A stretch of 64,000 nucleotides of DNA from Acidimicrobiales bacterium. GTDB lineage: Bacteria > Actinomycetota > Acidimicrobiia > Acidimicrobiales > JAUJNH01. The stretch spans positions 956 to 64,955 of the forward strand of contig JBBSHM010000003.1 of the NCBI GenBank assembly GCA_038253125.1. The letters are read 5' to 3'. Below, in pieces: positions 49,553 to 64,000 of the stretch (position 1 is the stretch's first letter; the number at the start of each line of letters is the position of its first letter). Position numbers and translations under genes: made by a program. The notes under the pieces were generated by a model. That model searched no databases. It saw only the letters and a list, made by a program, of their open reading frames with translations, and was not told the DNA's origin.

Positions 49553-49667
49553 GCCCAGCCGACGCTAATGACATGTCCCGGCGCCACCGGCCGGTCTGCG
49601 CTGTGAGGTTGACCCATACCGCCCTCCGGCTGGCCGGCGAGGTCTTTTGAGGCTGCCTCTACTTCCT

Positions 49668-51194
49668 CTACTTCTTCCCCGAGAGGTACACGTACACCGC
49701 TCCCTGGTCCTTGTTCTGGGCGACGTCCTCGAACGGCGCCGTCGCCACGTAGTCCGGGCTGCCGTCGCCGTTGAGGTCGCCGGGTGAGGCGCTGCTCCAG
49801 CCCAGGCTGGGGCCCAGGTTGTCAGCTACCACCGGCTGACGGTCCGAGGGCGGCAGCTCGAGGGCCTCCAGCATCTTGCCGGTCCGGCCATCAAAGACGT
49901 ATGTCCCGCCGTCGCCCGGGGTGTTCGGCACCTCGTGCGGCGACTGGCCGACGTAGAGGGCCGGGGTGCCGTCGCGCTGGAAGTCGGTGGCCGACATCGA
50001 CCAACCGAACTGCCCGCCCTCCGTCGGCGTCGGGTCGTTGAGCTGGTAGAGGACCCGGCCAGTCCTGCCGTCGAATACCCAGGCTGCGCCCTGGCCCTTG
50101 CCGGCGGGACCGTCTTGGAGGAAGCCGTTGCCGTAGATCTCGGCGGCGCCGTCGCCGTTCAGGTCTCCCGGTGACAGCGGCGCCGCGTCCTGGAAGCCGA
50201 AGTCGGCCCCCTGCTGGGGCTGGGGGTCGGCGATGGACAGCAGCAGCTCGCCGGTCTTGCCGCTGAAGAGCATGAGCTTGCCGACCCCGTCGAGACTGCC
50301 AGCGTCCACCAGCTGGTCGGGGACACCGTCGGCGTTGGTGTCACCCGGACCCTGCACGGCCAAGCCGAGCGAGCCGCAGCTGTTGCTCGTCATCCCGCCA
50401 CCGCCGGCACCGCGGCACGAGGCCGGAGGCTGATCCGTCGCCGGTAGGTCAAGGGTGCGCACGAGTGCTCCGGCCCGGCCGTCGAAGACGAAGGCCTGTC
50501 CCTGGTCCTTGTGGCAACCGTCGGGAACGGGGTCCTCCTGGCCGCACCCGGCCGGCACATCGTTGGCCGAGGCCCCGACGATGATGTCGGGCACCCCGTC
50601 GCCCGTGACGTCGCCGGCGGAGGCGATCCGAGACCCGAACCGGGCGTCAGCCTGGGGCTGGGGGTTGTCGAGCCGGTACAGCATCTTGCCGTCGGCGCCG
50701 CTGAAGACCCAGGCCGCCCCCTGACCCTTGTTCGGGCCCACCGTCTGTGCGTCGGTGCCGACGGCGACATCCGACTTCCCGTCGCCGTCCACGTCACCGA
50801 GGGTGGCGGTGGCGAACCCGAGCTTGGCGTCCGCCTGCGGCTCGGGCGGATCGATCGGGTATAGGACCTTGCCGGTCCTGCCGCTGACCGCCCACGCCCG
50901 GCCTGCATTGCGGGTCGACGGCGTGCTGTAGCGGGGCTGGCCGACGAACAGGTCGGTCACCCCGTCGCCATCCAGGTCGCCACTGCGCCCGGCCACCGAC
51001 GCCGAGGCCACCCGCTCCCCCCACCGCCCGCTGGCCTGGGGCTCGCTGGCATCGATGCGCGACACCGTGTAAGGACGCTCCCCTCTGGTCGCCGAGGTCG
51101 AGGCGGTCTGACCCGTCCCCGACGAACCCGAGCTGCAGCTGGCCGCCACCATGGCCACCGCCGCGGCGAGCGGCGCCAGCCGCACCAGCCTCAA
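49668..51194 (-). CDS. FG-GAP (integrin-alpha-like) repeat lipoprotein
   Basis: Lipobox AMVAASCSS; repeated GDLDGDGVTDLFVG, GDVDGDGKSDVAVG, GDVTGDGVPDIIVG, GDLNGDGAAEIYG, GDLNGDGSPDYV. The start is TTG at 51194 or GTG at 51185. Confidence 0.8.
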   Translation of the reverse strand: MRLVRLAPLAAAVAMVAASCSSGSSGTGQTASTSATRGERPYTVSRIDASEPQASGRWGERVASASVAGRSGDLDGDGVTDLFVGQPRYSTPSTRNAGRAWAVSGRTGKVLYPIDPPEPQADAKLGFATATLGDVDGDGKSDVAVGTDAQTVGPNKGQGAAWVFSGADGKMLYRLDNPQPQADARFGSRIASAGDVTGDGVPDIIVGASANDVPAGCGQEDPVPDGCHKDQGQAFVFDGRAGALVRTLDLPATDQPPASCRGAGGGGMTSNSCGSLGLAVQGPGDTNADGVPDQLVDAGSLDGVGKLMLFSGKTGELLLSIADPQPQQGADFGFQDAAPLSPGDLNGDGAAEIYGNGFLQDGPAGKGQGAAWVFDGRTGRVLYQLNDPTPTEGGQFGWSMSATDFQRDGTPALYVGQSPHEVPNTPGDGGTYVFDGRTGKMLEALELPPSDRQPVVADNLGPSLGWSSASPGDLNGDGSPDYVATAPFEDVAQNKDQGAVYVYLSGKK

Positions 51195-51622
51195 AGCAAC
51201 GCCCTCGTCTGCAGGCCCGTCCCGCTCCCGCCCCTGCTCTCGGCCCGGCTCGCGGCGGTGATCCGCTGCAGCTCCGCCTCGACCTCATCGGCGGCGGAAG
51301 CGGCCGACACCCCGGCACCGGCTATCTGGCGCCGCCGGAGCACCCGCAATCCAGCCCAGACGGCCGACATGATCAGCACACCGACCACGGCTGCCGCCAG
51401 GTACCAGGCGACCCCGCCACCCGCCGACTCCTGACCCGACGACACCGCCTGGCCGTACCGCGCCACCGTCGACGGCCCAGCCACCGACTGACCCCCGACC
51501 GGCACGTTCGGGTCCACATGGGCCCACGCCGGACCAGCAACCATTACCGAGATCCCCACGCCGATCACGGCGGTTCCCACGCCCCACACATGAGCTCGCT
51601 GCACCATCCGAAGCTCACCCAA
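51191..51622 (-). CDS. Hypothetical membrane protein
   Basis: Signal-like GVGTAVIGVGISVMVAGPAWA and a second TM WYLAAAVVGVLIMSAVWAGL. Its stop overlaps the FG-GAP gene start. Confidence 0.45.
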   Translation of the reverse strand: MGELRMVQRAHVWGVGTAVIGVGISVMVAGPAWAHVDPNVPVGGQSVAGPSTVARYGQAVSSGQESAGGGVAWYLAAAVVGVLIMSAVWAGLRVLRRRQIAGAGVSAASAADEVEAELQRITAASRAESRGGSGTGLQTRALL

Positions 51623-51759
51623 CTCTCAACAGTCGTTCTCGCTCTTACCTGAACAGTAGTCAAGGTCGATGGGACAGCCCAAAGCCAGTGGGTGCGATCG
51701 ATGAAGAAGCCCTCGTCGGCCACCGGGGCTTGCGTGATGGACACCTCTTGCGCCGCCAC

Positions 51760-52104
51760 CTACGTGGGGTGGCGGGCACCGAGAATCGCCGGTGGCCAGG
51801 CGAGCAGCACGATTGCCACGATGAGGGCGGGAAGGTTGAAGACGTAGGCGAAGTACGTCGGCGTGGCGACCGAGATCAGCAGGAGAAGCCCTGCGAGGCG
51901 ATCACGGCAGGAACGGACGGCCCCTGCGGCGCCGACCGCGGAGAGTGGGAAGGCGACAGATGCGACGTAGAGAACGACCGGGGCGTCACCGATGTCGATG
52001 AACAGTGCGGACAGGGCGATCAGCGCCCCTCCAAACGCCCAGACCAGACACCCGATCTCCACTGCCCCACGACGGCCCACCCGGTCAGGCCGACCGTGGG
52101 TCAA
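51760..52104 (-). CDS. Hypothetical multi-pass membrane protein
   Basis: Three or four hydrophobic segments (CLVWAFGGALIALSALFI, VVLYVASVAFPLSAVGAAGAV, LLLLISVATPTYFAYVF, ALIVAIVLLAWPPAIL). No family recognised. Confidence 0.4.
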   Translation of the reverse strand: MTHGRPDRVGRRGAVEIGCLVWAFGGALIALSALFIDIGDAPVVLYVASVAFPLSAVGAAGAVRSCRDRLAGLLLLISVATPTYFAYVFNLPALIVAIVLLAWPPAILGARHPT

Positions 52105-52407
52105 CGCCGCGGCCAGGGACTCGGCGATGAGCAGGCCGCCCCCGAGCGGGCCGCAAGTCTGGCCGCGTCATCGAGGGGCCGCGGTTCGAGGATCTGGAGG
52201 ACTTCGGGTGGGGTGACGCCACGACGGAAAGATCCTCGACCGGTAGCACTCCCAGGCGCTGGAGAGCTGGCCGCCGGCCCGGGCGTGGATTCGTTGCAGC
52301 AGTCGCCAGTGGCGGGACGCGGTCACGCCCAGGTCGTCGTCGGGGAGCCAGTCGGGCCAGGCTCCACCGAGAACGCGGATGGCCAGGTACTCATCGATCA
52401 GGATCAC
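52090..52407 (-). pseudogene. Frameshifted toxin-like gene downstream of a small antitoxin-like gene
   Basis: GTG at 52405-52407. VILIDEYLAIRVLGGAWPDWLPDDDLGVTASRHWRLLQRIHARAGGQLSS continues plausibly only after phase changes (ALQRLGVLPVEDLSVV, then VTPPEVLQILEPRPLDDAARLAARSG..LLIAESLAAAL). Confidence 0.4.
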
Positions 52408-52413
52408 GTTCGA

Positions 52414-52635
52414 GCTCCCGGGGTGGGACGGTCAGGCGTCGTCGTCGTGGTGACCGCCGAGCAGGGGGTCGGTGGCCAGATCGGCGTCGAGGCCGGCCTG
52501 GAACTCCTCGACCAGGTCCCCCGTCGTCATCCGCTGGAACAGCTCTCGGCCTTCGGCCGACAGCCTGGGGTCGCCCGCTCGGCGCCGACGCCGCCGCTCC
52601 TCCAACAGCTCCTCACCGATGCTCACCCTCCCATT
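52414..52635. repeat. Left copy of a ~210-220-bp direct repeat (partner at 63791-64000)
   Basis: Hand alignment gives 14 mismatches in about 211 aligned nt plus one 12-nt indel. It covers the small antitoxin-like gene and flanks. Confidence 0.9.
52432..52626 (-). CDS. Small acidic-tailed protein, putative antitoxin (copy 1 of 2)
   Basis: VSIGEELLEERRRRRRAGDPRLSAEGRELFQRMTTGDLVEEFQAGLDADLATDPLLGGHHDDDA. It lies 24 nt upstream of the toxin-like remnant, and a near-identical paralog sits at 63809-63991. Confidence 0.5.
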   Translation of the reverse strand: MSIGEELLEERRRRRRAGDPRLSAEGRELFQRMTTGDLVEEFQAGLDADLATDPLLGGHHDDDA

Positions 52636-52741
52636 GTGCCCCCGCCGCCTGGTGGCAGAGGCTGTAGAGCGGCACGTGCTCGAGGCCGTGCCGGTGCAGG
52701 ATCGTGCGGAACCTCCTCGACACCGCACGTGGGCGGCCACG

Positions 52742-53059
52742 AACGTGCTCGCTGTCGCACCTCCGTTCCGTCTCGCCGGCTACGCCACCGTCTACCGCCT
52801 GTGGGCGCCGGTGGTGCACAACCTCTACCTGCTCGATCAGATCGCCTTTGTGGCCTGCGTCGCCGTTCGGTTCCGGCGCGCCGAGGGGGACGAGGTTGAG
52901 CAGTTTAAGTGGTTCGTCTACGTCCTCACCGTCGGGGTCATCGTGATGGTCATCGACCGGATGGTGCTGGGCAGCGCCAGTTTGGGCCTGCTGTCCTCGC
53001 CGTCATGCTGCCGTGATCGGATCGGACTCTCAGCAGGTGAAGTGGCCGGGTGTGGTTGA
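52742..53059 (+). pseudogene. Fragment of a sensor histidine kinase membrane region (no kinase domains follow)
   Basis: LAGYATVYRLWAPVVHNLYLLDQIAFVACVAVRFRRAEGDEVEQFKWFVYVLTVGVIVMVI resembles the (R)YRRA-x-G-x-E-x-QQ-KW segment of actinobacterial HK sensor domains. The ORF then runs into the 3' end of the giant gene. Confidence 0.35.
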
Positions 53060-56000
53060 GTATGCGGCGCCTGCGTTGTTGGGGTTGGCCGTGCCAGGAT
53101 AGATGATCGTGACTTCGCCGCCGCCGACGGATGTCCGGTCGGCTGCCCCGACCGCGCCGTCGGCCTGACCGAGCTTTTGGAGGTAGGTGAGGACGCCGGG
53201 ACTTAATGATCTGGTGATCTGCGAGCCGCCGTACGCCGCGGGACAGACCATGAACAGGTTGTAGGCGCCGAACGAGTCGACCAGCCGGTCGTTGAGATTG
53301 TCGGCCTGGGAGATGTCCCGGTTGTAGCCGCCGTAGGCGATGTCGCCGTTGGTGGTCGTCGGGTTGTTCTGGGCGCCCGGGTCGATGTCGTAGGACTGTC
53401 CGGCGGGCGCCGGGAAGCGGGTTGCGTAGGCCGGGATGTTCGGGAACAGCGGCGGTAGAGCCTTGTTGTGTTCGTCCGACTTGGGCGGGACGTCGGTCGA
53501 CAGCGGGCTCCGGATGACGTCGAGGTCGTCGTTGCCATCGCCACCCCAGAGGTGGTCGTTGCCGGGCCCGCCCTGGATCGAGTCGTTGCCGTTGTCGCCG
53601 AACAAGATGTCGTCTCCGGTCGCGGCCGTCTGCCCGGCGATGCGCATGCCGTCGTCGCCCTGGATGAAGTCGTCACCGGCCCCGCCGTGGATGGTGTCGT
53701 TGCCCGGGCCGCCGAAGAGCAGGTCGTTGCCGCCGACGGTGAAATCGAGCAACGTCGTCGGGTAGATGGTGTCGCCCGACGCCGGGAACGACGCCACCAG
53801 GTTGGGCGGGCCGGCCGAGCTGATGTTCTGGGTCGCGCCGGTGAACGGGGTCACGGTAACCGTCGCCCGGTCGCCGATCAGCGCGTCGTCGCCGCCTTCG
53901 CCGCAGGCCAGGTCGTTGCCGTACCCCCCGATCGCGATGTCCTGGCCGGCATTCGGGTCGCTGACCGGTAGGCACTCGTCCGGCGATGGGGCGGGCAGCG
54001 CCGACCAGGCGCTGATGCTGCGCGGGGCGTTGGCGGCCGGGGTGTCGCCGTGAAGAACGTCGTTGCCGTCCTCGCCGTAGTGGGCATCGTTGCCGCTGTT
54101 GCCCTCGATGTAATCGTCGCCGTTGTGGGTCGTCTCGCTGCTCGACTCTCCGAGCAGGGTTGGGTACCGGGTGGTCGAGGTGCCGAGTGAGGTGGTGGCA
54201 TCCTTGGACCTGCCGTAGCTGGTCTGGGTCCAGGCGCACCCGTCCCGCCCGGCCGCCGCGCCGTTGACGGGTGCGCAGCGGTCGATGCGGGCGTTGTTGC
54301 CGGCGATCACGTCGTTGTCGGGTTGACCGGTTGTCTGGCTGCACTCGAATCCGCAGATGTGGTTACCCAGCCTTGGGGTGCCGGCCGCTGCGCCGGCGGT
54401 GCCGTCGGCCTCGGCTGAGGCGTCGCTGCCCGCCGGGAGCGCGACCGGGCTGGTGCCGCCGACGATGTCGTCGTCGCCCGCTCCGCCGGACATGATGTCG
54501 CTGCCGAGGTTGCCTTCCATGTAGTCGTCGCCGACGCCGCCGTCCATGGTGTCGTTGCCGATGCCGCCCCACATCCGGTCGTTGCCGTCGCCGCCGCTCA
54601 TGGTGTCGGCGCCGCCGACTGTCAGCCGGTCGAGTAGCAACGCGCTGCGCAGGAAGCTACCGTCGGCCTGGGAGATGGCCCAGTTGCCCTCGGCGTCGAG
54701 GGGGTGGGTAATCGAGCCGTTGTCACCGATGAGGTAGTCGGCGCCGGCGTCACCGTTGATGGCCGCGTCTCCGACATCGGTCACATCGGTGGTGGTGTGA
54801 CCGGGGGCGAGCGCCAGCGGTGAGGTACCACCGATGACGTCGTCCTGGCCGTCGCCGCCCGACAGCGTGTCGCTGCCGTTGTCGCCCTCGATGTGGTCGT
54901 TGCCGCCGTCACCGCTGATGGCGTCGTTGCCCACCCCGCCGAGCAGCCAGTCGTTGTTGTTGCCGCCGGACATGACGTCGTCGCCACCCACGATGGGGCC
55001 GCCGGTATAGATACCGAGCAGCGCCAAGGTCCGGTGGACCATGGGGGTGTCGGTCGGGTCGGAACCGTCGAGCACGACCGGGTTGTCCCGGGTGATGCTG
55101 CCGTTGTCGCCGACCACGACGTCGTTGCCGTCCTCGCCGTACAGGTGGTCACCGACGTCGGGGATGGCCGATGAGTCGGCGCCAGCGACGGCGACCGGTG
55201 AGGTGCCCCCGATGATGTCGTCTTGGCCCGCGCCGCCGTAGATGGTGTCGGTCCCGACGTTTCCTTCGAGGTGGTCGTCGCCGTCACCGCCGCGGGTGGT
55301 GTCGTCGCCGAGGCCGCCGAAGGCGGTGTCGTTGCCGCTGCCGGCGTCGATGGTGTCGTTGCCGCCCAGGGTCGGGTCGGTCGATGTCAGGTCGAAGACG
55401 TTGACGACCGGCGGCGAGGCGTTCCTGATCGTCCCGTTGTCCCCGATGATGACGTCGTCGCCGGCGTCGCCGTAGATGGTGTCGCCGGTGTCCGCCGATC
55501 CGGCGACGGAGGTGCCGCCGATGAGCTGGTCGTTGCCCGGGCCGCCGGAGAGGACGTCCGCGCCGCTGTTGCCCTCGAGGTGGTCGTTGCCGTCGTCGCC
55601 GTAGAGCTGATCGTTGCCGCTGCCACCCGAGATCAGGTCGTCGCCGGTCCCGCCGGACAGAACATCGTTGCCCTGGTGGCCGCAGATCCGGTCGTTGCCG
55701 GCACCACCGGTGATGGTGTCGTTGCCGCCTTCTCCGCTGATGATGTCGTTTCCGGGGCCGCCGTTGATGGTGTCGTTGCCGTCGCCGGCGGTGACCGGCT
55801 CGGATGCGGCCGGCCACACCACCGGGTTGGTGGAGGTGAGGACGGGACAGGTCGCGTTGCCCTGGTCCCCGAAGATGAGGTCGTCGCCGCCACCGCCGTA
55901 GATGGTGTCGTTGCCGGCCCCGCCGAAGATGATGTCATTTCCATCCTGTTGCGAGGAGGGCTGGAGCTGGCTGAACCGGCCCAGTGCTGGATTGGCCGGG

Positions 56001-59000
56001 GTCAGTGAACTGTCGCCGCCGATGTTGTCGTCGCCCGCGTCGCCGTGGATGGTGTCATTCGCTGGTCCGCCGAGGATGGTGTCGTTGTCCGGGCCGCCCG
56101 AGATGGAGTCGTCACCGGCGCCGCCGGTGATGGTGTCGGCACCGCCGTTGCCGTAGAACGTGTCGTGGGTCGCGATGACGGGCGGTGTCTGGGTGGCGTC
56201 GGCTGACACCGAGTGCCCGACGATGGTGTCGGCGCCGGCGCCCCCGTAGACGGTGTTGTCGCCCGTGCCGCTGTCGATGTGGTCGTCGTAGGTCAGGCCG
56301 GCCACCATGGTGCCGGTCGCGGCCGGATCGGTTAGCGTCTCGTAGTAGTCACCGTAGATGGTGTCGTGGTGCGGACCCCCGACGATGCTGTCGTTACCGG
56401 ACCCGCCGATTAGGACGTTGTTGTCGTCCCGGAACGCCGGGTTGGTCGGATCGGTTACGACCCGACCGTCGTCCGCCCCACCGGCGATGTGGTCGTTGCC
56501 GCCGCCACCGTTGACCACGTCACCGGCGTTGACGTCGCTACCGTTGACGCCGCCTCCGCCGAGGCCGGCGTCGATTGTGTCGTTGCCGTCGGCATTGGCA
56601 CCACCATTGATCTCGGTCACGTGGAGGGCGTCGAGCGACACGGCGTAGTTCGGCCCGACCGTGAGCGCGGCGTCGCCGGCCACTTGGTCGTTGCCGGCGC
56701 CGCTGTGGATGTCGTCGTTGCCTGGGCCGCCGGCGATGAGGTCGTTGCCGTCGCCGGTGATGATCAGGTCGTTGCCTTGCCCGCCGTCGACCGCGACCAC
56801 CGGTGCGACCGACGAGCCGGCGGGTGCCCTGCCGTCGACCTTTATCTGGTCGTCCTGGTTGCCGCCGAGGATGACGGCGGGCTGGTCGAAGTGGCGGACG
56901 GTCGTGCCGGTGGCGGCCGGGTCGGTCCCGGTGCCGTCACCGAGCATGTTGACGATCTCGCGGCCGTCGTAGCCGGTGGCGTCCAGGATGACCCGGTTGA
57001 GCCCGGGGTGGCCCGGGTCGTTCGGTATGCCAGGGTTGGGAGCGATCATGAAGTCTTGGTGGTTCCCTAGGAGGTCGACGCCGAAGCCCAGGAAGTTCCC
57101 GGCCGCGTCGTGTTGGGCCCGGACCGTGGTCAGTTCGGTCGGCTGGGTCTCGGCGCCGTCCAGAGCCGGGTTCGGTGTCTTGGTCAGCGGACCGCCGGCC
57201 TTGTTGTCCCAGTGTGCGTTTCCGCGCGCGGTACCGGTTCCGTATTTGCCGGCGTTGATGATGAGATCCGTGCCCGCGACCTGGCCCAGCGTCGGAGGCG
57301 GCGCGGGCGCGTCGCAGCTGTGGTCGAGGTTGAGGATCTGCCCGTGGGCCAGGGTGTTGGTCCACTCCTCATCGAACAGGCCGAAGTTGACCTTGAAGAA
57401 CAGGACCAGATCGGCGCTGATGTCACCAGAACTGTCGAAGATGCAGAAGGCGTTGAAGTCACCATTGGCATCGCGGCCGAGCTCGTTGATCCTGACCTTG
57501 CCGTCGCCCTTGCCGGTGTTCGGCAGGTCAGGCGTCTTCGGGCTGTCGGAGTCCTTCAGGTCGAGGTTGGCGGTGAGATTTATCGCGCCGCGTATGCCGG
57601 CTTCGACGACTGCCAGGCTGAGCTTGGCGTCGATGTACACCATTGCGTGGGAGATTGCGATCTCGGGGCGCTCCTGGCCCTGGCTGTCGAAGTCGTCGAG
57701 GTAAAACCCGTCGAGGATGCTGGCCAGTTTGCCGGTTTCGATGGCCTTGCGGATCCCGTAGGTGTCGAAGCCTCCGGAGAAGCGCATGTCGACGGTGGCG
57801 GCCACGCCGATGTCGATGAACAGCGGGATCCCGAGGGGACCGATGGTGATGGCGAAGGAGAACTCGTTGTGCAGCGGTCCGGTGTCGTAGGTGACGAGCG
57901 AGATGTCCTGGCCGAGGAGCAGGCCGGCCAGTTTCTCGGGCTGGTCGAGCACGGGGAGGTGGAGGCCGATTGTCCCGGTCGGGTCGAGTTCATCGAGCCC
58001 GATCTCCTTGGTGAGCTTGTTGAGCGCGTCGCCGCATTTGGCGCAGGCCGCGGTAACAGCGTCCTGGACGGCTTTGGCCCCGGCCAGCGCGTTGCCGGTG
58101 ATGAAGTTCTGGATCTGATCCGGGGTGGGTATCCCGACCAGCGCCTTGTCCTTGTTGACACCGAAATCGCCGAGATGTACCGTCCCGCCCGACCCGAAGT
58201 CGACCGCCGATTGGACCAGTCGCAGCACCCGTTCGAGAGCCGCGAACTGCCCGTTGCCGCCGTTGAAGGTGCTGTACAGCTTCATGAGGGTGAGGATGCT
58301 GATGTCGCCCCCACCCACCATGTGCGAGATATCGGACACTCCCGGAATGGGCCCGTCGATGGCGTCGACGACCGGCTTCAGCGGGGAGATGGTCTTTTTG
58401 ATGTCGTCGTAGACCGGCCCGAGCAGCTTGTGGAAGAACGGGTCGAGCTCCAGTTTCACGTCGGAGAACCCGATCGCCAGTCCAGTGTTGTCCGTCGGGT
58501 CGCTGTGGGTGCTGTCCCAGCCCCAGGTGACGCCTAGGTGGGCCGAGATCCCGGGGAAGTCGGAGCCGGCGTTGGCGCTGAGGTCGTATTGCACGTTGGC
58601 CTTGGCACCGAGGCCGATGTGCACCAGTTGGGCGATATCCGCGGAGGCGATGTCGGAGATGCTGAGCAGCGACTTGCCGTTGACCTGCTGCAGCCCGATC
58701 TCGAAAGTGCCCGAGAACTCCGGGGTGGAATGGTTGGTGTCAGCTGTCGCGGTGCCGCCGCCGCCGTTCATGTCGGCGGCTTTGACGGTCACGAACCCGA
58801 TCTGGGCGTCGAAATCGGGGAGGTTGAGCGAGAGCGCCAGTTTGAGGTCGTTGTTGGCCGGTGACCCGGCGTCGAGGTAGAACCCGTGCTCCTTGTCGAA
58901 CCCGAAGGTCAGTTTGAGCTGCCACCCCAAGTCGATGGCGGGACTTGCGTCGCTGCGGAACCGCACGCCGGGGATGCCAAGGTCGAGTTTGCCCGGCGCG

Positions 59001-62000
59001 ACGCTCGGGCAGTTGCTGCCGCTGCATGCTGTTCCGGGGGTCACGCTCCCCTGCCCGACGGTCATCGAGAACCTCACGCCGTCCACCGCGCTCGCGTCCT
59101 CGGTCCCGAGGCAGCTGATGCCTCCGCAGGTAACCGTGGCGGTGAACCCGCTGAGCTCGGTCAGGTGCAGCGTGTTGAGGGCGTTCTCGACATCGTTCGA
59201 GGTGGGGGTAGTAGCTGTGACCGACAGCGCGCCGACGGCGGCGGTCAGGTCCTGCTTGAGCTTCTGGACGAAGGCTGAGCCCTCTTGGATGTCCTTGCCG
59301 ACAAAGGGGAGCTTGCCGTTGGCGCTGGCGACGTCGAGCGACCGGCTGATGTCGTCGAGGTACGGGGCCAGGCCGCCGTTCAGCCCGTCTTTGATCTTCG
59401 GGAGGTCGAGGGTGAGGCTGGACTGGGCGGTCGTGAGGCTGCCGGGAACGGTGATTGACGAGTTGTCGGGCGTGATGCCGGCCAGGCCGTCGCCGAAGAA
59501 GGCCTCGTCGCCCGAGAGGCTGACACCGAAACTGCTCCCGAGGGTCTTGAGGTCGGCGCATACCGCTTTGCCGATCGAACCATCCGGGCAGGTCACCGTC
59601 GGGTCAGCCGCGGGCGCCGCGCTGGACGCGCCGGAGGCCCAGGTGGCGAGCGAAACCAGCCCACCACCGGGACCCTGGACGGTCAACCGTGGGTGGGCCT
59701 CGATCTTGGCCGGGTTGAGGGTGACGGCGAGCGCACCTACGGTGGCGGTGCGGGAGCCGCTGAATGACAGGTCGGGCGAGACCGAGACCGAGCCGTTGCC
59801 CTGGACCATTACCTGGCTGGGGTCGGTTGGCGCGGTCCCGTCGAGGGGAACGGTGAGCGCCAGGTGGGCCTCGGTCCGGCCCTTGGCGCTGAGTGTGCCG
59901 TCGGTGCCGACGCCGACCAGGTCGAGGGGCTTGCCGGCGGACTGGAAGCGCATGGCGAGTGGGGCGGCCGGTTCGCTATCGAGCAGTCGGACGTAGTCGA
60001 CGTCGAGGACCAGATGCGATGCCGGGTGGCTGCCGTCCATGTGAAAAGCCAGCACGCTTGGCGTCCCGAGGGCGGTCGACACGCTGTGGATGAGGCCTTG
60101 GAGGGATTCGGACGGTCCCTGATCGGTGCCCGTCGAGTTCGAGGAGATGGCGCTGAGGGCGGCGTCGAGCTCGGTGGTGCGGAGCAGCGAGGACATGCTA
60201 CGCCCGAGCACCTGGACCTTGGCGTTGAGGCGGTCCTTGGTCGCGCCGGTGGTGAGCGTCCCAAGCTTCTGGAGGGTGTCCCGGAGGGCGCCGACTTCGT
60301 TGGCGACTGCGCCCCGCAGCGCGGTGCTGTCGGCCCCGAAGTCGAGCGGCTTCAGCCGGTCCTGCAGGCCGGCGCCGGCGATGGTCAGTGCCGGCTGCGT
60401 GATGTCGTCGCTGCTCGCGGTCAGGGTGGGATCGGCGCCGTCGAAGAAAAGGCTGGCGTCGGGAACGAACCCATGCAGCGTCGAGCGGAAGTTGGCGAGC
60501 GTGTCATAACTGATGGCGGTGGACGGGGTGCCCCCGTTCAACTGGTTCATCAAGACGCCCATGCGCTGCGGGCCTTGTGAGGCCAGCCCGATGTGGACGA
60601 GGTGAGCCGCCCCGGTAGCGGTGGCGATGCTGATCGAGCCGGTGTCGAACCCGGCCTGAACGAACCCGGCCATCCCGACCGATGGTTTGGCCGCCGTTAC
60701 CGTCGCGCTGACTGTCGTGTCGGCGTCGAGCAGCGTGCCGCCGGTGGCGACCAGGAACCGGTCGGGGGCGATGGGCAGCGACGAGATGATCTTGGTGCCG
60801 ATGACCTGGCTCCCATTCACCTCCTGCACGCTGAAGGGGCAGGCGGCATTGGCCGGGTTGGCCGGATCATTGGCGGTCGCGCAAGCCGTGCCGGCCACGG
60901 GTGGTTTGAGGTCGAGCACAACCGGAAGGTGGAGGGTGTAGGTGGGCGCAGTGGTCGCGACGTCCCCGCCGGGATCAGCCGCGTTGCGGATGCCGGTGAG
61001 CGACTGGGTCGCGTTGCCGATCTGGACCGTGCCCAGGTTCTTGTCGGTCGACCCGTGCGTGGGATCGTTGATGTTCTCGGTGCCACCGGTGCGGTTCACG
61101 ACGATCTCGAACGCCAGCCGGGAGGTGGGATCGTCGTAGCTGGCATTGGCGACAGTCGCCGTCACCACGGCCGGGCCGGTCGATGGGACGTTGACGGTCT
61201 CCTGGCTCAAGGCATTGAAGAAGCCCTGGATCGAGCTGAATTTGGCCTGGCCTGTGGCCTGGTCGACGTTGGCTGGATCGGTGAGGAATTTGACGAACAG
61301 TTCATCGGGGCGCACCGCGTCCGACAGCTTGGCGTCGAGGAACGGCAGGGAGGCGTCGCCGTGCTGGGCTCCGGACAGATGGGCCAGTTGGGCATCACGG
61401 ACAAGGAACAGCAGCCGGGCGACGCTGGTGGCCAGGTCCCTCGGCCCGAGGGTGTTGAACTTTACCAACCGCGCATCGAGGCTCGGCGTGGTCACGGTCG
61501 GCGGTACCGTCGAAAGATCGGCGCTGGTGACACTGACCGAGGTCGGAATGGACGGGAGGGTGAGGCCGGGGATGGCGCTGGGAGCGGTATCGAGATCCAA
61601 CTGGCCGGACACGGAACTGGCGGCTGTGCTGCTTGGGGCGTAGCCGGCGGTGACGATAGCGGCGGTGTTGGCGGCCTGAGCCAGCTCGCCCGGGTTGGTC
61701 GCACCACCCGACGCCGGCTCGGTGAAGGCCAGCTTGCCGTCGTTGTTGGAGTCGAGCCACGTCGTCACGTAATGGGTGTTGAGCTGGAAGGTCGAGGTGA
61801 TCAGCTTCATGGCCAGGATGCCAATCGCCACGTCGACCTTGGTCACATCAGGAATGGACGCCGCGAGGTCGACCTTCAGCGACGGGGTCGAGGCGGTGTG
61901 TACCAGGTAGAAGAAGCTCCTGGACGAGTCGAACGCGACCGTCATGGTGCCGGTCAGGGTGAAGTCCGCCTTCACGCCGTGACTGGCGTTGACCTGCAGG

Positions 62001-62509
62001 CTGGGGCTGGTGCTGGCGATCTGCAAGCCGCTGTCGACGGACCGGGTGACGGTGAAGTCAAGTTGCAACTGCTCGGTCGTGGTACCAGTGGGGGCAGGTG
62101 TTGGCGTAGCGGTCACGAAGGCGTGGCGACCGCCGCCTTCCAGATCCACGCCTGATGCTCCGGTCGACAACGCGGTGGCGACGTCCGACAGCTGAGACGA
62201 GCCGGCCGGGATCCGGTTGACGATGAGCTTGTCGAGCAGATCGTCGAAACCCAGGGTCGAGGGCTCCCCGGGAGTCACCGTCAGCTGCGAGACCGGGGTG
62301 GCGAACGAGCCGGCCGACGCCAGGCCTCCCGACTTAAGGTTGGTAAATGCCGCGAGCTGGGCCAAGCCAGCGGTGATGGCGGCTACACCCGGATCGGCCG
62401 CAACGGCGGCAGCCGGAGTTGGTCCCCTCAAGCCGAAACTGACCAGACCCATCACCGTCAGGACAACCCCGAATCGACGCTTTACGGTCAATACCATCAT
62501 GAAACCCAC
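53030..62509 (-). CDS. Giant (3159 aa) secreted protein: N-terminal signal, ~1900-aa non-repeat region, ~1100-aa RTX-type (GGxGxD) calcium-binding repeat block, short unique C-terminus
   Basis: Signal-like MMVLTVKRRFGVVLTVMGLVSFGLRGPTPAAAVAA. There are dozens of nonapeptide-type repeats such as GGQGNDLIITGDGNDLIAGGPGNDDIHSGAGNDQVAGD between about 53510 and 56800. An alternative ATG start lies at 62500. Confidence 0.85.
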   Translation of the reverse strand: MGFMMVLTVKRRFGVVLTVMGLVSFGLRGPTPAAAVAADPGVAAITAGLAQLAAFTNLKSGGLASAGSFATPVSQLTVTPGEPSTLGFDDLLDKLIVNRIPAGSSQLSDVATALSTGASGVDLEGGGRHAFVTATPTPAPTGTTTEQLQLDFTVTRSVDSGLQIASTSPSLQVNASHGVKADFTLTGTMTVAFDSSRSFFYLVHTASTPSLKVDLAASIPDVTKVDVAIGILAMKLITSTFQLNTHYVTTWLDSNNDGKLAFTEPASGGATNPGELAQAANTAAIVTAGYAPSSTAASSVSGQLDLDTAPSAIPGLTLPSIPTSVSVTSADLSTVPPTVTTPSLDARLVKFNTLGPRDLATSVARLLFLVRDAQLAHLSGAQHGDASLPFLDAKLSDAVRPDELFVKFLTDPANVDQATGQAKFSSIQGFFNALSQETVNVPSTGPAVVTATVANASYDDPTSRLAFEIVVNRTGGTENINDPTHGSTDKNLGTVQIGNATQSLTGIRNAADPGGDVATTAPTYTLHLPVVLDLKPPVAGTACATANDPANPANAACPFSVQEVNGSQVIGTKIISSLPIAPDRFLVATGGTLLDADTTVSATVTAAKPSVGMAGFVQAGFDTGSISIATATGAAHLVHIGLASQGPQRMGVLMNQLNGGTPSTAISYDTLANFRSTLHGFVPDASLFFDGADPTLTASSDDITQPALTIAGAGLQDRLKPLDFGADSTALRGAVANEVGALRDTLQKLGTLTTGATKDRLNAKVQVLGRSMSSLLRTTELDAALSAISSNSTGTDQGPSESLQGLIHSVSTALGTPSVLAFHMDGSHPASHLVLDVDYVRLLDSEPAAPLAMRFQSAGKPLDLVGVGTDGTLSAKGRTEAHLALTVPLDGTAPTDPSQVMVQGNGSVSVSPDLSFSGSRTATVGALAVTLNPAKIEAHPRLTVQGPGGGLVSLATWASGASSAAPAADPTVTCPDGSIGKAVCADLKTLGSSFGVSLSGDEAFFGDGLAGITPDNSSITVPGSLTTAQSSLTLDLPKIKDGLNGGLAPYLDDISRSLDVASANGKLPFVGKDIQEGSAFVQKLKQDLTAAVGALSVTATTPTSNDVENALNTLHLTELSGFTATVTCGGISCLGTEDASAVDGVRFSMTVGQGSVTPGTACSGSNCPSVAPGKLDLGIPGVRFRSDASPAIDLGWQLKLTFGFDKEHGFYLDAGSPANNDLKLALSLNLPDFDAQIGFVTVKAADMNGGGGTATADTNHSTPEFSGTFEIGLQQVNGKSLLSISDIASADIAQLVHIGLGAKANVQYDLSANAGSDFPGISAHLGVTWGWDSTHSDPTDNTGLAIGFSDVKLELDPFFHKLLGPVYDDIKKTISPLKPVVDAIDGPIPGVSDISHMVGGGDISILTLMKLYSTFNGGNGQFAALERVLRLVQSAVDFGSGGTVHLGDFGVNKDKALVGIPTPDQIQNFITGNALAGAKAVQDAVTAACAKCGDALNKLTKEIGLDELDPTGTIGLHLPVLDQPEKLAGLLLGQDISLVTYDTGPLHNEFSFAITIGPLGIPLFIDIGVAATVDMRFSGGFDTYGIRKAIETGKLASILDGFYLDDFDSQGQERPEIAISHAMVYIDAKLSLAVVEAGIRGAINLTANLDLKDSDSPKTPDLPNTGKGDGKVRINELGRDANGDFNAFCIFDSSGDISADLVLFFKVNFGLFDEEWTNTLAHGQILNLDHSCDAPAPPPTLGQVAGTDLIINAGKYGTGTARGNAHWDNKAGGPLTKTPNPALDGAETQPTELTTVRAQHDAAGNFLGFGVDLLGNHQDFMIAPNPGIPNDPGHPGLNRVILDATGYDGREIVNMLGDGTGTDPAATGTTVRHFDQPAVILGGNQDDQIKVDGRAPAGSSVAPVVAVDGGQGNDLIITGDGNDLIAGGPGNDDIHSGAGNDQVAGDAALTVGPNYAVSLDALHVTEINGGANADGNDTIDAGLGGGGVNGSDVNAGDVVNGGGGNDHIAGGADDGRVVTDPTNPAFRDDNNVLIGGSGNDSIVGGPHHDTIYGDYYETLTDPAATGTMVAGLTYDDHIDSGTGDNTVYGGAGADTIVGHSVSADATQTPPVIATHDTFYGNGGADTITGGAGDDSISGGPDNDTILGGPANDTIHGDAGDDNIGGDSSLTPANPALGRFSQLQPSSQQDGNDIIFGGAGNDTIYGGGGDDLIFGDQGNATCPVLTSTNPVVWPAASEPVTAGDGNDTINGGPGNDIISGEGGNDTITGGAGNDRICGHQGNDVLSGGTGDDLISGGSGNDQLYGDDGNDHLEGNSGADVLSGGPGNDQLIGGTSVAGSADTGDTIYGDAGDDVIIGDNGTIRNASPPVVNVFDLTSTDPTLGGNDTIDAGSGNDTAFGGLGDDTTRGGDGDDHLEGNVGTDTIYGGAGQDDIIGGTSPVAVAGADSSAIPDVGDHLYGEDGNDVVVGDNGSITRDNPVVLDGSDPTDTPMVHRTLALLGIYTGGPIVGGDDVMSGGNNNDWLLGGVGNDAISGDGGNDHIEGDNGSDTLSGGDGQDDVIGGTSPLALAPGHTTTDVTDVGDAAINGDAGADYLIGDNGSITHPLDAEGNWAISQADGSFLRSALLLDRLTVGGADTMSGGDGNDRMWGGIGNDTMDGGVGDDYMEGNLGSDIMSGGAGDDDIVGGTSPVALPAGSDASAEADGTAGAAAGTPRLGNHICGFECSQTTGQPDNDVIAGNNARIDRCAPVNGAAAGRDGCAWTQTSYGRSKDATTSLGTSTTRYPTLLGESSSETTHNGDDYIEGNSGNDAHYGEDGNDVLHGDTPAANAPRSISAWSALPAPSPDECLPVSDPNAGQDIAIGGYGNDLACGEGGDDALIGDRATVTVTPFTGATQNISSAGPPNLVASFPASGDTIYPTTLLDFTVGGNDLLFGGPGNDTIHGGAGDDFIQGDDGMRIAGQTAATGDDILFGDNGNDSIQGGPGNDHLWGGDGNDDLDVIRSPLSTDVPPKSDEHNKALPPLFPNIPAYATRFPAPAGQSYDIDPGAQNNPTTTNGDIAYGGYNRDISQADNLNDRLVDSFGAYNLFMVCPAAYGGSQITRSLSPGVLTYLQKLGQADGAVGAADRTSVGGGEVTIIYPGTANPNNAGAAYSTTPGHFTC

Positions 62510-62584
62510 TCAGTTCTGCCGCAGTTCCGCCGCGGCGCCGTTGCGGCTGCGGGCCGTCTCCAGTCGGAGAAGAGCCCAGGGACG

Positions 62585-62613
62585 ACTATTGCTCGGCGGA
62601 CATATCGTGTCAA
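62585..62613 (-). promoter_or_regulatory. Candidate sigma-70-type promoter of the giant gene
   Basis: On the minus strand: TTGACA (62608-62613), a 17-nt spacer, then AATAGT (62585-62590), about 75 nt upstream of the start codon. Confidence 0.4.
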
Positions 62614-62632
62614 GCGGACGTATCGTGTCAAG
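62597..62632. repeat. 18-bp tandem duplication containing the TTGACA element
   Basis: cggacatatcgtgtcaag (62597-62614) and cggacgtatcgtgtcaag (62615-62632), with one mismatch. Confidence 0.9.
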
Positions 62633-62943
62633 GGGCGGGCAGACGTTGCCCGGTGTCCGACCCGGCCGGGGTGTCGAACGCCGGGGGCCTCACCAGCCGT
62701 CTCCCGTCCCACGCCCCGGGGGCCCCAGTGAGCTTGTTCTGCGCCTATCCGTTCAGGATTCTGCACGGTTCCTCGTCACATACGCCACCCAAGGCCTTGG
62801 GCCGCCACGATGGACGAGAATGACCGCAAGCAGTGGGCGTCCAGCCACTCTTCGTCGAGACCCTGGGCACTTCTCCTCATAGGCCCCATTGGACGGTCGA
62901 CCGGCGGCCGGGCCCGAGGAGTGTTCGGGCTTCTTGGTCGTGG

Positions 62944-63297
62944 TCATTGGTTTGGGGGCCCGTCTGTTGTCGGTTGAGGCTGTCCGCGCCGGCCTGGGCC
63001 GGTCGGACCGGTCGGACAGGGTGCGGCAGAACGTGACCGAATCAGGTTGTGGCGGGGACGCGGTCGTGCCAGGCGGGCACCTAGCACGACGATCCAGGTG
63101 AGGACGGCGGTGGTGAAGACCCGCTGGTACAGGCCCGCCCAGCCGGGGCTGATACTCGAGCTGAACAGGTAGAGAACGAACAGCCCGAACGACAGTGGTG
63201 CGCTGATCTGTGAGTAGCGGCGCAAGCCCTGCCACTGCGGGTCGTCGCGGAACGCTTCGGCGAAGACCAGGGGGGCGAGCATCAGGATCCAGAACAC
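62944..63297 (-). pseudogene. Possible DUF998-like membrane protein fragment
   Basis: VFWILMLAPLVFAEAF...ISAPLSFGLFVLYLF...GWAGLYQRVFTTAVLTWIVVLGARL followed by a non-membrane Arg/Pro tail. It is shorter than expected for the family. Tentative. Confidence 0.3.
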
Positions 63298-63590
63298 GGT
63301 GATGGCGGCGAAGTCGTGGCCGTGGTGGTGCCAGGAGACGCTCCCGGGGTGACCGTCGCGCGGCCGGTGCCGGCGCCTCGCCTACCGCCAAGGTGGACCG
63401 CCCGCCGGGTCCGTACGGGGCGCGGATCATCTGCATCGTCCAGCGGCCCGGCCCCCCGCCCACCCAGGGCCGGCTTCGCTTTCGGTGGCGCTCCAAGGCC
63501 CGTGGTTCTCATCAGGCTCAGTATGCGGGGGTGTCGGGCTGGGCACTAGGGGCAGTTGTCCCGAGTTGGCGGGAAATCTCGGCCTGGGTC

Positions 63591-63629
63591 CGGGACAAAT
63601 GTCCCGTCGGTAACGGGACATTTGTCCCG
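63591..63629. promoter_or_regulatory. Two 16-bp near-palindromes CGGGACA-WW-TGTCCCG separated by 7 nt (together a perfect 16-bp-stem hairpin)
   Basis: cgggacaaatgtcccg (63591-63606), tcggtaa, cgggacatttgtcccg (63614-63629). Extra half-sites are ttgtcccgag (~63557) and gcgggacagg (~63634). Confidence 0.45.
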
Positions 63630-63790
63630 TGACAGCGGGACAGGACCTGGTCCTCGTCTCTTCGTCGCCGGTCTGAGCCTCCCGTTGCTCAGCCGTTGAC
63701 CGCCGCTCTAGCCGAGACTGGCGGAACCTGTCAAGGGGTTTGAGACATCTGGTCAGATTTCTTCTGTGCGTCGCCGTCGCCGGGGACGGG

Positions 63791-64000
63791 GCTCCCGGGG
63801 CGGAGCGGTCAGGCGTCGTCGTCGTGGTGACCGCCGAGCAGGGGGTCGGCGTCCAGGCCGGCCTGGAACTCGTCGACCAGATCCCCGGTCGTCATCCGCT
63901 GAAACAGCTCCCGGCCCTCGGCCGACAGCCTGGGGTCGCCCGCCCGGCGCCGCCGCCGACGCTCCTCCAACAGCTCCTCACCGGTGCTCACCCTCCCATT
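63791..64000. repeat. Right copy of the direct repeat (reaches the window edge)
   Basis: See 52414-52635. The repeat may extend beyond position 64000. Confidence 0.9.
63809..63991 (-). CDS. Small acidic-tailed protein, putative antitoxin (copy 2 of 2)
   Basis: VSTGEELLEERRRRRRAGDPRLSAEGRELFQRMTTGDLVDEFQAGLDADPLLGGHHDDDA. It differs from copy 1 by a 4-aa deletion and a few substitutions. No toxin-like ORF lies downstream. Confidence 0.5.
   Translation of the reverse strand: MSTGEELLEERRRRRRAGDPRLSAEGRELFQRMTTGDLVDEFQAGLDADPLLGGHHDDDA

What the first reader, a model, noticed from the sequence alone, without database searches (positions are those of the whole stretch)
52414..64000. ~11.4-kb segment bracketed by ~93% identical direct repeats (paralogous antitoxin-like genes), with gene fragments on both sides of a giant gene
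The repeats at 52414-52635 and 63791-64000 have the same orientation, with 14 mismatches in ~211 nt plus a 12-nt indel by hand count. Between them lie only a histidine-kinase membrane fragment without kinase domains (52742-53059), the 9.5-kb giant gene, its promoter, a possible DUF998 fragment and a palindrome array. Left of the left repeat is a frameshifted toxin, while the right copy has no toxin. The giant gene also uses many A/T-ending codons (gta, ttg, att, cct, gat, cat, ggt, act, caa, ctt within its first ~150 codons), unlike the neighbouring core genes. Together this looks like an acquired or rearranged island that could be lost or amplified by recombination between the repeats.
Basis: partly seen in the sequence, partly recalled or inferred. 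Interest (0 to 1): 0.7.

Follow-up and report, generated by a model that had tools for sequence, protein, structure and literature searches.

The report
Tandem mobile-element remnants flanking giant gene
The two repeats are copies of a small antitoxin-like gene that travels with tRNA-Glu-integrating mobile elements in uncultured Acidimicrobiales, so the giant calcium-binding protein gene sits inside a decayed, patchwork genomic island: a well-known kind of structure, not a new one.

Summary
The segments 52414-52635 and 63791-64000 are direct repeats with 14 differences in 209 ungapped columns plus a 12-nt indel. Each encodes an intact 60-64 aa protein on the minus strand.

The repeats are not island boundaries, and probably not a recent local duplication. 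In related contigs this small gene lies between a tyrosine integrase and a 138-aa partner whose predicted fold is PIN/VapC. These three genes sit at the tRNA end of integrative mobilizable elements. One such element is bounded by 22-nt att repeats, and others lie next to tRNA-Glu.

The right copy ends 4-5 nt before the PIN start codon. It is closer to copies from other metagenomes (5 and 8 differences) than to the left copy (14).

A syntenic relative, L092, shares PEPC and the helicase but nothing to the right of about 49.6 kb. At the equivalent place it carries a displaced tRNA-Glu 3' fragment, an integrase fragment and the small gene.

My best reading is two successive integrations at tRNA-Glu followed by decay, with the giant RTX gene as cargo or a later insert. 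The compositional argument is weak. Deletion by recombination between the repeats is possible but not shown.

The parts
63791..64000 (-). Right repeat (module R). It contains the small antitoxin-like gene 63991..63809 (60 aa from GTG; the source aa starting at about 64006), plus 20 nt downstream. Homology to intact modules ends at 63789, 4-5 nt before the partner's expected start codon.
63549..63628 (.). Three operator-like palindromes, GGGACAnnTGTCCC, in unrelated DNA just past the break of module R.
   Evidence: 3 matches against 0.34 expected by chance.
62944..63297 (-). 5'-truncated DUF998 gene fragment. Only the C-terminal ~40% of the family profile is present.
   Evidence: PF06197, E 4.9e-6, profile positions 112-183 of 184, below the gathering score. 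GC3 is 0.77.
62596..62631 (-). Two tandem 18-nt repeats (TTGACACGATAYGTCCGC on the minus strand), 90-120 nt upstream of the giant gene. Possibly a promoter or operator.
   Evidence: The function is inferred only.
53030..62509 (-). Intact giant gene: 3159 aa from GTG, or 3156 aa from ATG 62500 as called by the source. It has a Sec-type N-terminal signal-like sequence, a ~1900-aa N-terminal part with no known domain, and a C-terminal half made of RTX nonapeptide repeats.
   Evidence: PF00353, E 1.4e-97, 18 stretches. P0141 is the window's own protein; only 6 other homologue clusters were found.
52742..53005 (+). Internal fragment of a multi-pass membrane sensor gene. It is related to the membrane part of GAF-HisKA_3 kinases and is truncated at both ends.
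   Evidence: (E 1.7e-13; matches residues ~184-271 of 400-aa proteins).
52644..52744 (-). Tyrosine-integrase fragment, corresponding to residues ~190-226 of a 272-aa homologue. About 246 nt are then deleted (the integrase 3' end and the spacer), so the fragment abuts the small gene's upstream region.
   Evidence: tblastn E 1.6e-10; 92.7% nt to L006 1095-1176.
52414..52635 (-). Left repeat (module L): small antitoxin-like gene 52626..52432 (64 aa, intact ORF).
52090..52407 (-). Pseudogene of the PIN/VapC-fold partner. It has several frameshifts and an in-frame stop, and is truncated after residue 108 of 138.
49668..52104 (-). Further island-specific genes that are absent from the syntenic relative: an FG-GAP repeat protein (49668-51194), a 143-aa ORF and a 114-aa membrane ORF.
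46625..49552 (-). SF1 helicase. This is the first gene shared with the syntenic relative L092 and marks the left edge of the variable region.
   Evidence: 72% aa, 74% nt.

Best explanation
Window 49.6-64.0 kb, probably continuing past the window end, is a variable island. It was most likely built by integrative mobilizable elements that target tRNA-Glu(CTC) in Acidimicrobiales.

These elements carry, next to the tRNA, a tyrosine integrase followed by a two-gene module: a ~65-aa antitoxin-like protein and a 138-aa PIN/VapC-fold toxin-like protein. I infer that two such elements integrated one after the other at the same site, in the same orientation because integration is site-specific (tandem accretion). 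Both then decayed.

- **Older copy (L).** It keeps 37 integrase codons, an intact small gene and a broken PIN gene.
- **Newer copy (R).** It is closer to the tRNA. It keeps the small gene, and whatever lies beyond 64000.
- **Between them.** The giant secreted RTX-repeat gene lies here with fragments of DUF998 and membrane-sensor genes. This DNA is cargo of the newer element, or later insertions and deletions within it.

The direct repeats are therefore homologous modules of two elements. They are not att sites and not a fresh duplication. The two small genes are orphan antitoxin-like genes that outlived their toxins. RecA-dependent recombination between them could delete the 11.4-kb segment, but nothing here shows that it does.

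**Shown:** the anatomy, the module's membership of delimited elements elsewhere, the PIN fold, the synteny break, and the displaced tRNA-Glu fragment in the relative.

**Inferred:** the order of events, the cargo status of the giant gene, and the presence of an integrase and tRNA-Glu beyond 64000.
For: 1. **The module belongs to mobile elements.**
   - In L006 the order is tRNA-Glu(ctc), integrase, small gene, 138-aa partner, HTH_17, TrwC relaxase.
   - In L009 a 10.3-kb element is bounded by perfect 22-nt repeats of the tRNA-Val 3' end. It holds TrwC, HTH_17, XRE, integrase, small gene and partner.
   - In L001 and L005 the order is gltX, DUF218, tRNA-Gln, tRNA-Glu, integrase fragment, small gene, partner or partner fragment.
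2. **The left module matches an intact one.** Window module L aligns with L006 at 87-93% nt apart from a 246-nt internal deletion. Module R aligns up to 5 nt before the partner start.
3. **The partner is PIN-like.** AlphaFold2 gives pLDDT 95.6. The top Foldseek matches are PIN/VapC proteins (2fe1, VapC2 3h87_A, FitB) at probability 0.99-1.0.
4. **The copies are not each other's nearest relatives.** Differences are R-L 14, R-L003 5 and R-L092 8 over 209 columns.
5. **A syntenic relative has different cargo at the same place.** L092 shares PEPC and the helicase, with the break at window position 49567. It carries an exact 46-nt tRNA-Glu 3' fragment with no full tRNA, followed by an integrase fragment and the small gene. 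Other genes lie upstream of that fragment. This is a displaced att remnant, as expected after a second integration at the same tRNA.
6. **The giant gene is rare and not syntenic.** Seven clusters were found in the 5.8-billion-sequence non-redundant protein database, one of them the window's own protein. The 69%-identical homologue sits in a different context beside transposase fragments.
Against: - No tRNA, no tRNA-Glu fragment, no relaxase and no intact integrase occur anywhere in the 64-kb window. The element identity of the window's own copies rests on homology to modules elsewhere.
- The sequence to the right of 64000 could not be obtained. The source contig is 66,360 nt and was not retrievable. 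The predicted integrase and tRNA-Glu next to copy R are therefore unverified.
- Composition gives almost no support for recent acquisition of the giant gene.
- L092 and module L share a very similar ~250-nt integrase deletion, yet by sequence L092 groups with R. This fits a single ancestral 'integrase-fragment + small gene' unit that later duplicated at least as well as it fits two integrations.
- Only one syntenic relative was found, and it is distant (72-77% aa).
Confidence: 0.55

Rival explanations
1. In-situ segmental duplication. A single decayed unit (integrase fragment + small gene) was duplicated in this lineage. The copies diverged by about 7%, and the giant gene and the gene fragments were inserted or rearranged between them.
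For: Module L and the L092 copy both carry an integrase mid-fragment joined to the small gene by a ~250-nt deletion at nearly the same place, yet by sequence L092 groups with copy R. That pattern is what one ancestral deleted unit giving rise to all three copies would produce.
Against: - The deletion endpoints differ by 3-8 nt on each side.
- The 5' ends of the integrase fragments differ, and no shared derived substitutions are visible.
- Independent internal integrase deletions are common in these remnants, as in L001 and L005.
- Copy R is 97.6% identical to L003, where the integrase 3' end is intact.
- Copy R shares the GTG start context of L003, not that of copy L or L092.
Confidence: 0.17
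2. Assembly chimera. The source is a metagenome-assembled contig, and copy R lies within about 2.4 kb of its end. The assembler may have joined two genomes or strains through this highly conserved repeat, so the two copies would not be on one chromosome.
For: - The contig is 66,360 nt and comes from NCBI. That it is a MAG assembly is inferred from the Acidimicrobiales MAG labels on related proteins.
- The small gene is 94-98% identical across different metagenomes.
- The L092 contig also ends inside the same island.
Against: - The join that matters, copy R to unique DNA at 63789, is on the inner side of the repeat, and the sequence is continuous from there to the core genes.
- GC content and GC3 stay in the same range across it, about 0.64-0.70 GC per kb and GC3 0.88.
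- A chimera at R would only affect what lies beyond 64000.
Confidence: 0.08
3. Recombination hotspot. The 25-nt spacer after the small gene is a site where cargo is exchanged, either as a secondary attachment site or as the edge of a conserved homologous-recombination anchor. The DNA after copy R would then be the native continuation of a different element lineage rather than a deletion scar.
For: - In three independent partner-less copies, homology ends 15, 19 and 22 nt after the stop codon. Each copy has different DNA beyond the break: L092, the second L005 copy, and window copy R.
- In L002 the small gene is followed by a Uma2-family gene instead of the PIN gene.
Against: - Ascertainment bias: copies were found through an intact small protein, so any break had to lie downstream of its stop codon.
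- Only five degraded cases were examined. The other two break inside the partner gene.
- No conserved sequence was recognised on the far side of the breaks.
Confidence: 0.12

Closest known systems
Tandem accretion of integrative elements at one attachment site. Examples are the ICESt1/ICESt3-CIME arrays of Streptococcus thermophilus and the SXT/R391 tandem arrays. They are reviewed in PMC5812530, which cites Pavlovic 2004, Bellanger 2011 and Hochhut 2001.
   Same: - Two related integration modules lie in direct orientation at one locus.
- The older one is decayed.
- A relative (L092) keeps a displaced tRNA 3' fragment next to the old remnant.
- Arrays of this kind are known to lose DNA by recombination between the related copies.
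   Different: - No att repeat, tRNA, relaxase or intact integrase is present in the window itself.
- The repeats seen are a cargo or stabilisation gene, not att sites.
- Mobility was not tested. The host is an uncultured Acidimicrobiales bacterium.
VapBC (PIN-domain) type II toxin-antitoxin modules carried by mobile elements.
   Same: - A small upstream gene sits about 25 nt from a ~138-aa gene whose predicted fold is PIN/VapC.
- The module lies inside integrative elements.
- The toxin is lost first and the antitoxin persists as an orphan.
   Different: - Neither protein matches any Pfam, NCBIfam or PADLOC model.
- The small protein is a three-helix protein with no recognisable AbrB, RHH, Phd or HTH DNA-binding fold.
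- Toxicity and neutralisation are untested.
- The last catalytic acidic position appears to be Asn in the family alignment (position assignment is my inference).
tRNA-gene-associated genomic islands.
   Same: - Variable cargo lies between a tRNA site and conserved core genes.
- Integrase remnants are present.
- The region is a mosaic of gene fragments.
   Different: - The compositional signature is almost absent.
- The tRNA itself is not within the window.
Large RTX-repeat secreted proteins (RTX adhesin or toxin-like proteins).
   Same: There are 18 matched stretches of the Pfam HemolysinCabind model (each model unit spans four nonapeptide repeats) in a protein of more than 3000 aa.
   Different: - It has an N-terminal Sec-type signal-like sequence (read from the sequence).
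- No type I secretion genes were seen next to it.
- The N-terminal 1900 aa has no known domain.
- Only six other homologue clusters were found.

Membership tests
PIN/VapC toxin (partner gene family) | PIN-domain fold | tested here: met
   The AlphaFold2 model of intact homologue P0150, built on a 40-sequence alignment, has pLDDT 95.6. The top Foldseek hits are all PIN/VapC: 2fe1, 3h87_A, 2bsq FitB and 5h4g, at probability 0.98-1.0 and TM about 0.5-0.6. Sequence profiles found nothing.
PIN/VapC toxin (partner gene family) | Conserved acidic active-site residues | tested here: inconclusive
   D5, E6, D75, D81 and E98 are invariant in 40 sequences, but position 117 is Asn (nearly invariant) where a fourth acidic residue might be expected. 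No structural superposition of the active site was made.
PIN/VapC toxin (partner gene family) | An intact gene in this window | tested here: not met
   Window 52407-52090 has several frame changes and an in-frame stop, and ends at residue 108 of 138. No partner follows copy R.
Type II antitoxin (small gene) | A small gene immediately upstream of, and co-oriented with, the toxin gene | tested here: met
   The stop-to-start gap is 9-32 nt in L004, L006, L009 and L001.
Type II antitoxin (small gene) | A recognisable antitoxin or DNA-binding fold, or neutralisation of the toxin | tested here: inconclusive
   The model has three helices, pLDDT 82 and pTM 0.41, with no meaningful structural or sequence match. 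Neutralisation cannot be tested with these tools.
tRNA-integrating integrative mobilizable element | Tyrosine integrase | tested here: not met
   The window holds only a 37-codon fragment. Related loci have full integrases matching PF00589.
tRNA-integrating integrative mobilizable element | Flanking att direct repeats derived from a tRNA 3' end | tested here: not met
   The window has no tRNA and no tRNA-Glu fragment. The feature is met in relatives: 22-nt repeats in L009 and a 46-nt tRNA-Glu fragment in L092. The region beyond 64000 could not be read.
tRNA-integrating integrative mobilizable element | Relaxase or other transfer functions | tested here: not met
   tblastn with the TrwC and HTH_17 proteins of L006 and L009 found nothing in the window.
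Horizontally acquired island | Absent from the syntenic position in a relative | tested here: met
   L092 shares PEPC and the helicase. Nothing to the right of window position 49567 is shared except the small gene. This rests on one relative, and a distant one.
Horizontally acquired island | Deviant base composition or codon usage | tested here: not met
   The giant gene has GC3 0.88 and a CAI-like index of 0.626. Both are at the low end of, but inside, the range of 20 other window genes.
RTX protein | Tandem calcium-binding nonapeptide repeats | tested here: met
   PF00353, E 1.4e-97, 18 stretches. A 27-nt periodicity is visible in the DNA.
RTX protein | Export by a type I secretion system (C-terminal signal, adjacent ABC/MFP genes) | not tested
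   No adjacent secretion genes were seen within the island. The N-terminus reads like a Sec signal. No signal-prediction tool was run.

The most novel reading that the evidence does not exclude
The small gene may be more than a leftover antitoxin.

- It is kept intact in every decayed copy examined: window L and R, L001, L005 and L092.
- It is unusually conserved, at 75-97% aa identity across 44 aligned homologues of 211 hits.
- In three independent copies the DNA downstream changes within the 25-nt spacer right after it.

It could therefore be one of two things. It could be a domesticated immunity or 'anti-addiction' gene that protects the host against re-invading PIN-carrying elements at the tRNA-Glu site. 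Or it could be the anchor of a cargo-exchange hotspot through which genes such as the giant RTX gene are swapped between elements.
Probability: 0.15. Interest if true: 0.55.

Novelty: new member of a known kind. Interest (0 to 1): 0.3.

Why it matters
This result explains the repeat, and it corrects the inference that the repeats delimit a mobile 11.4-kb unit.

It also describes three things for a poorly known, uncultured lineage (Acidimicrobiales):
- a family of small tRNA-integrating mobilizable elements;
- an unannotated PIN-fold toxin-like family with its very conserved small partner;
- a rare giant RTX-repeat protein carried in the variable region.

None of this changes how such islands are understood. 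The value lies in annotation, and in a possible test case for orphan-antitoxin retention.

Tried and rejected
- **Hidden RNA gene as integration target.** I checked whether the conserved repeat is a tRNA, tmRNA or other RNA family. ARAGORN and Rfam found nothing in the window. The synonymous-dominated differences fit a protein-coding gene.
- **Sequence beyond 64000.** Exact look-ups of the window's own proteins (60-aa and 65-aa forms of the small protein, and the giant protein) returned nothing.
- **Reference genomes.** The genome-contig scan with the small protein was swamped by the arginine-run pattern and gave one locus only.
- **Empty site through PEPC.** The metagenome scan anchored on PEPC returned 80 loci. 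The closest has 71% aa identity, and none shares neighbouring genes with the window.
- **Phage origin.** The partner family has no relative in IMG/VR.
- **Plasmid origin.** There is no match in PLSDB.
- **Defence-system models.** PADLOC has no hit for the small protein or the PIN-like partner.
- **Fold of the small protein.** No meaningful structural match was found.
- **Shared flanks with giant-gene homologues.** The window's flanks have no similarity to L010 or L011.
- **Compositional island signal.** This was computed and found marginal.

Full report
**Observation**

The window is high-GC DNA, about 0.64-0.79 per kb. The closest protein matches are to Acidimicrobiales metagenome bins.

The repeat pair is real. 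Window 52414-52635 and 63791-64000 align in direct orientation. There are 14 differences in 209 ungapped columns, one 12-nt indel, and a longest identical run of 44 nt.

Both copies encode an intact small ORF on the minus strand: left 52626..52432 (64 aa) and right 63991..63809 (60 aa). Only two of the nucleotide differences change an amino acid, apart from the 4-aa indel.

No tRNA, tmRNA or Rfam family overlaps the repeats or occurs anywhere in the window.

**What the repeated gene is**

The small protein has 211 homologue clusters at E <= 0.001. Those that carry a taxon label are from Acidimicrobiales metagenome bins, none has a Pfam domain, and the protein is very conserved. The 44 sequences aligned are 72-97% identical to the left copy.

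Its genomic contexts are informative:
- **L006.** The order is tRNA-Glu(ctc), a tyrosine integrase, the small gene, a 138-aa gene, an HTH_17 gene and a TrwC relaxase.
- **L009.** TrwC, HTH_17, an XRE-like gene, an integrase, the small gene and a 141-aa partner lie between perfect 22-nt direct repeats of the 3' end of tRNA-Val. This is a delimited 10.3-kb integrative mobilizable element.
- **L001 and L005.** The order is gltX, DUF218, tRNA-Gln, tRNA-Glu, an integrase fragment and the small gene. In L001 the contig ends 22 codons into the partner. In L005 only a partner fragment follows.
- **L004.** The pair lies inside an element next to tRNA-Pro and another integrase.

The partner family has no Pfam, NCBIfam, PADLOC or PDB sequence match. 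An AlphaFold2 model built on 40 homologues is confident (pLDDT 95.6). Its best structural matches are all PIN/VapC proteins at probability 0.98-1.0.

The small protein models as three helices with no informative match. Calling the pair 'antitoxin-like plus PIN toxin-like' is thus supported by gene order and by the partner's fold, not by any functional test.

**Anatomy in the window, read along the minus strand**

1. **Module R.** The small gene R matches intact modules up to 63789, which is 4-5 nt before the partner's start codon. The sequence beyond that is unrelated.
2. **Palindromes.** Three GGGACAnnTGTCCC palindromes lie at 63549-63628.
3. **DUF998 fragment.** A 5'-truncated DUF998 fragment lies at 63297..62944.
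4. **Upstream of the giant gene.** Two tandem 18-nt repeats contain TTGACA.
5. **Giant gene.** The intact gene is 3159 aa, or 3156 aa as called by the source. It has RTX repeats in its C-terminal half and a signal-like N-terminus.
6. **Membrane-sensor fragment.** On the opposite strand at 52742-53005 is an internal fragment of a membrane-sensor gene. It is related to the membrane part of GAF-HisKA_3 kinases.
7. **Integrase fragment.** It is 92.7% identical in DNA to L006, and about 246 nt are deleted after it.
8. **Module L.** The small gene L is followed by the partner as a pseudogene, with several frameshifts, a stop, and truncation at residue 108.
9. **Island-specific ORFs.** A 114-aa membrane ORF, a 143-aa ORF and an FG-GAP protein follow.
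10. **Core genes.** Then come an SF1 helicase and PEP carboxylase.

**Comparison with relatives**

The only syntenic relative found is L092, from assembly GCA_038199465.1. It was reached through a near-identical small protein.
- It shares PEPC (81% nt, 77% aa) and the helicase (74% nt, 72% aa) in the same order. Similarity begins exactly at the helicase start, window position 49567.
- To the right of that point only the small gene is shared. L092 has a RES/Xre pair and a molybdate-transport operon where the window has FG-GAP and the other island ORFs.
- Immediately upstream of its small gene, L092 has an integrase fragment with a ~250-nt deletion at nearly the same place as in module L.
- Some 85 nt further upstream it has an exact copy of the last 46 nt of tRNA-Glu(ctc), with no complete tRNA.
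- Unrelated genes lie upstream of that tRNA fragment.

This is what a second integration into the same tRNA leaves behind. The former 3' end of the tRNA is displaced together with the older remnant.

In the window, the position upstream of the old integrase fragment is occupied by the sensor fragment, the giant gene, the DUF998 fragment and module R.

**Are the two copies a local duplication?**

Over the same 209 columns, copy R differs from L003 (another metagenome) at 5 sites, from L092 at 8 sites, and from copy L at 14 sites. Copy L differs from L003 at 13 and from L092 at 19.

The start of the source's own protein call for copy R implies a GTG-CAC context upstream. L003 shares this context, but copy L and L092 do not. 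L003 has an intact integrase 3' end.

These facts favour two separately acquired modules. Against that, the similar integrase deletion in L092 and module L could mean a common deleted ancestor. However, the endpoints differ by a few nucleotides on each side, the integrase fragments start at different places, and different internal integrase deletions are seen in L001 and L005. I therefore keep duplication as a live rival.

**Composition**

The giant gene has GC3 0.88 and a CAI-like index of 0.626. Twenty other genes in the window span 0.87-0.955 and 0.606-0.787. Only the first 150 codons stand out, with GC3 0.74. The lower overall GC of the gene comes from first and second codon positions, that is, from its amino-acid composition.

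**The giant gene elsewhere**

Only six other homologue clusters were found. The best (69% identity, L010) lies next to transposase fragments in an unrelated context. The next (38%, L011) is also in an unrelated context. This fits a rare, horizontally moving cargo gene but does not prove it.

**Verdict**

This is a decayed, mosaic island at a tRNA-Glu integration site, a familiar kind of structure. Tandem arrays of integrative elements at one att site, and their reduction by deletion, are described for ICESt1-related elements and SXT/R391 (PMC5812530 and the references it lists).

The repeats are conserved stabilisation-module genes of two element copies. They are not the ends of a mobile unit. 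Deletion of the segment by homologous recombination is plausible but unproven.

Three things remain open:
- what lies beyond 64000;
- whether the metagenome contig is faithful at its end;
- why homology ends within the 25-nt spacer after the small gene in three independent partner-less copies.

Noticed in passing
window 63549-63628: Three palindromic boxes, GGGACAnnTGTCCC (two perfect, one with one mismatch), occur only here in the window, against 0.34 expected by chance. They look like an operator array left without an obvious regulator gene.
   Followed up: partly
window 62596-62631: Two tandem 18-nt repeats (TTGACACGATAYGTCCGC on the minus strand) lie 90-120 nt upstream of the giant gene's start. 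They are a possible promoter or operator.
   Followed up: no
window 46625-49552: The SF1 helicase next to PEPC is conserved in L092. It matches the PADLOC helicase models MkoA and MkoC (E about 1e-30) over part of its length. It may be a defence-type helicase or simply a related core helicase.
   Followed up: no
L009 443-10806: A compact 10.3-kb integrative mobilizable element is bounded by perfect 22-nt repeats of the tRNA-Val(cac) 3' end. It carries TrwC, HTH_17, XRE, an integrase, the small gene and the PIN-fold gene.
   Followed up: partly
L092 3170-3215: An exact 46-nt 3' fragment of tRNA-Glu(ctc), running from the anticodon loop to the CCA-proximal end, is present without a full tRNA. 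It is a displaced attachment-site remnant.
   Followed up: yes
L005 11064-11151: A second, partial copy of the small gene's 3' end lies about 3 kb downstream of the first copy, in direct orientation. It breaks at almost the same point after the stop codon as window copy R.
   Followed up: partly
L002 3173-4077: Here the small gene is followed by a Uma2-family (putative endonuclease) gene instead of the PIN-fold partner, so the small gene is not always paired with the PIN gene.
   Followed up: no
window 51760-52104: A 114-aa membrane ORF starts inside the last recognisable codons of the truncated PIN pseudogene. Its GC3 is 0.78, and it is unclear whether it is a real gene.
   Followed up: no
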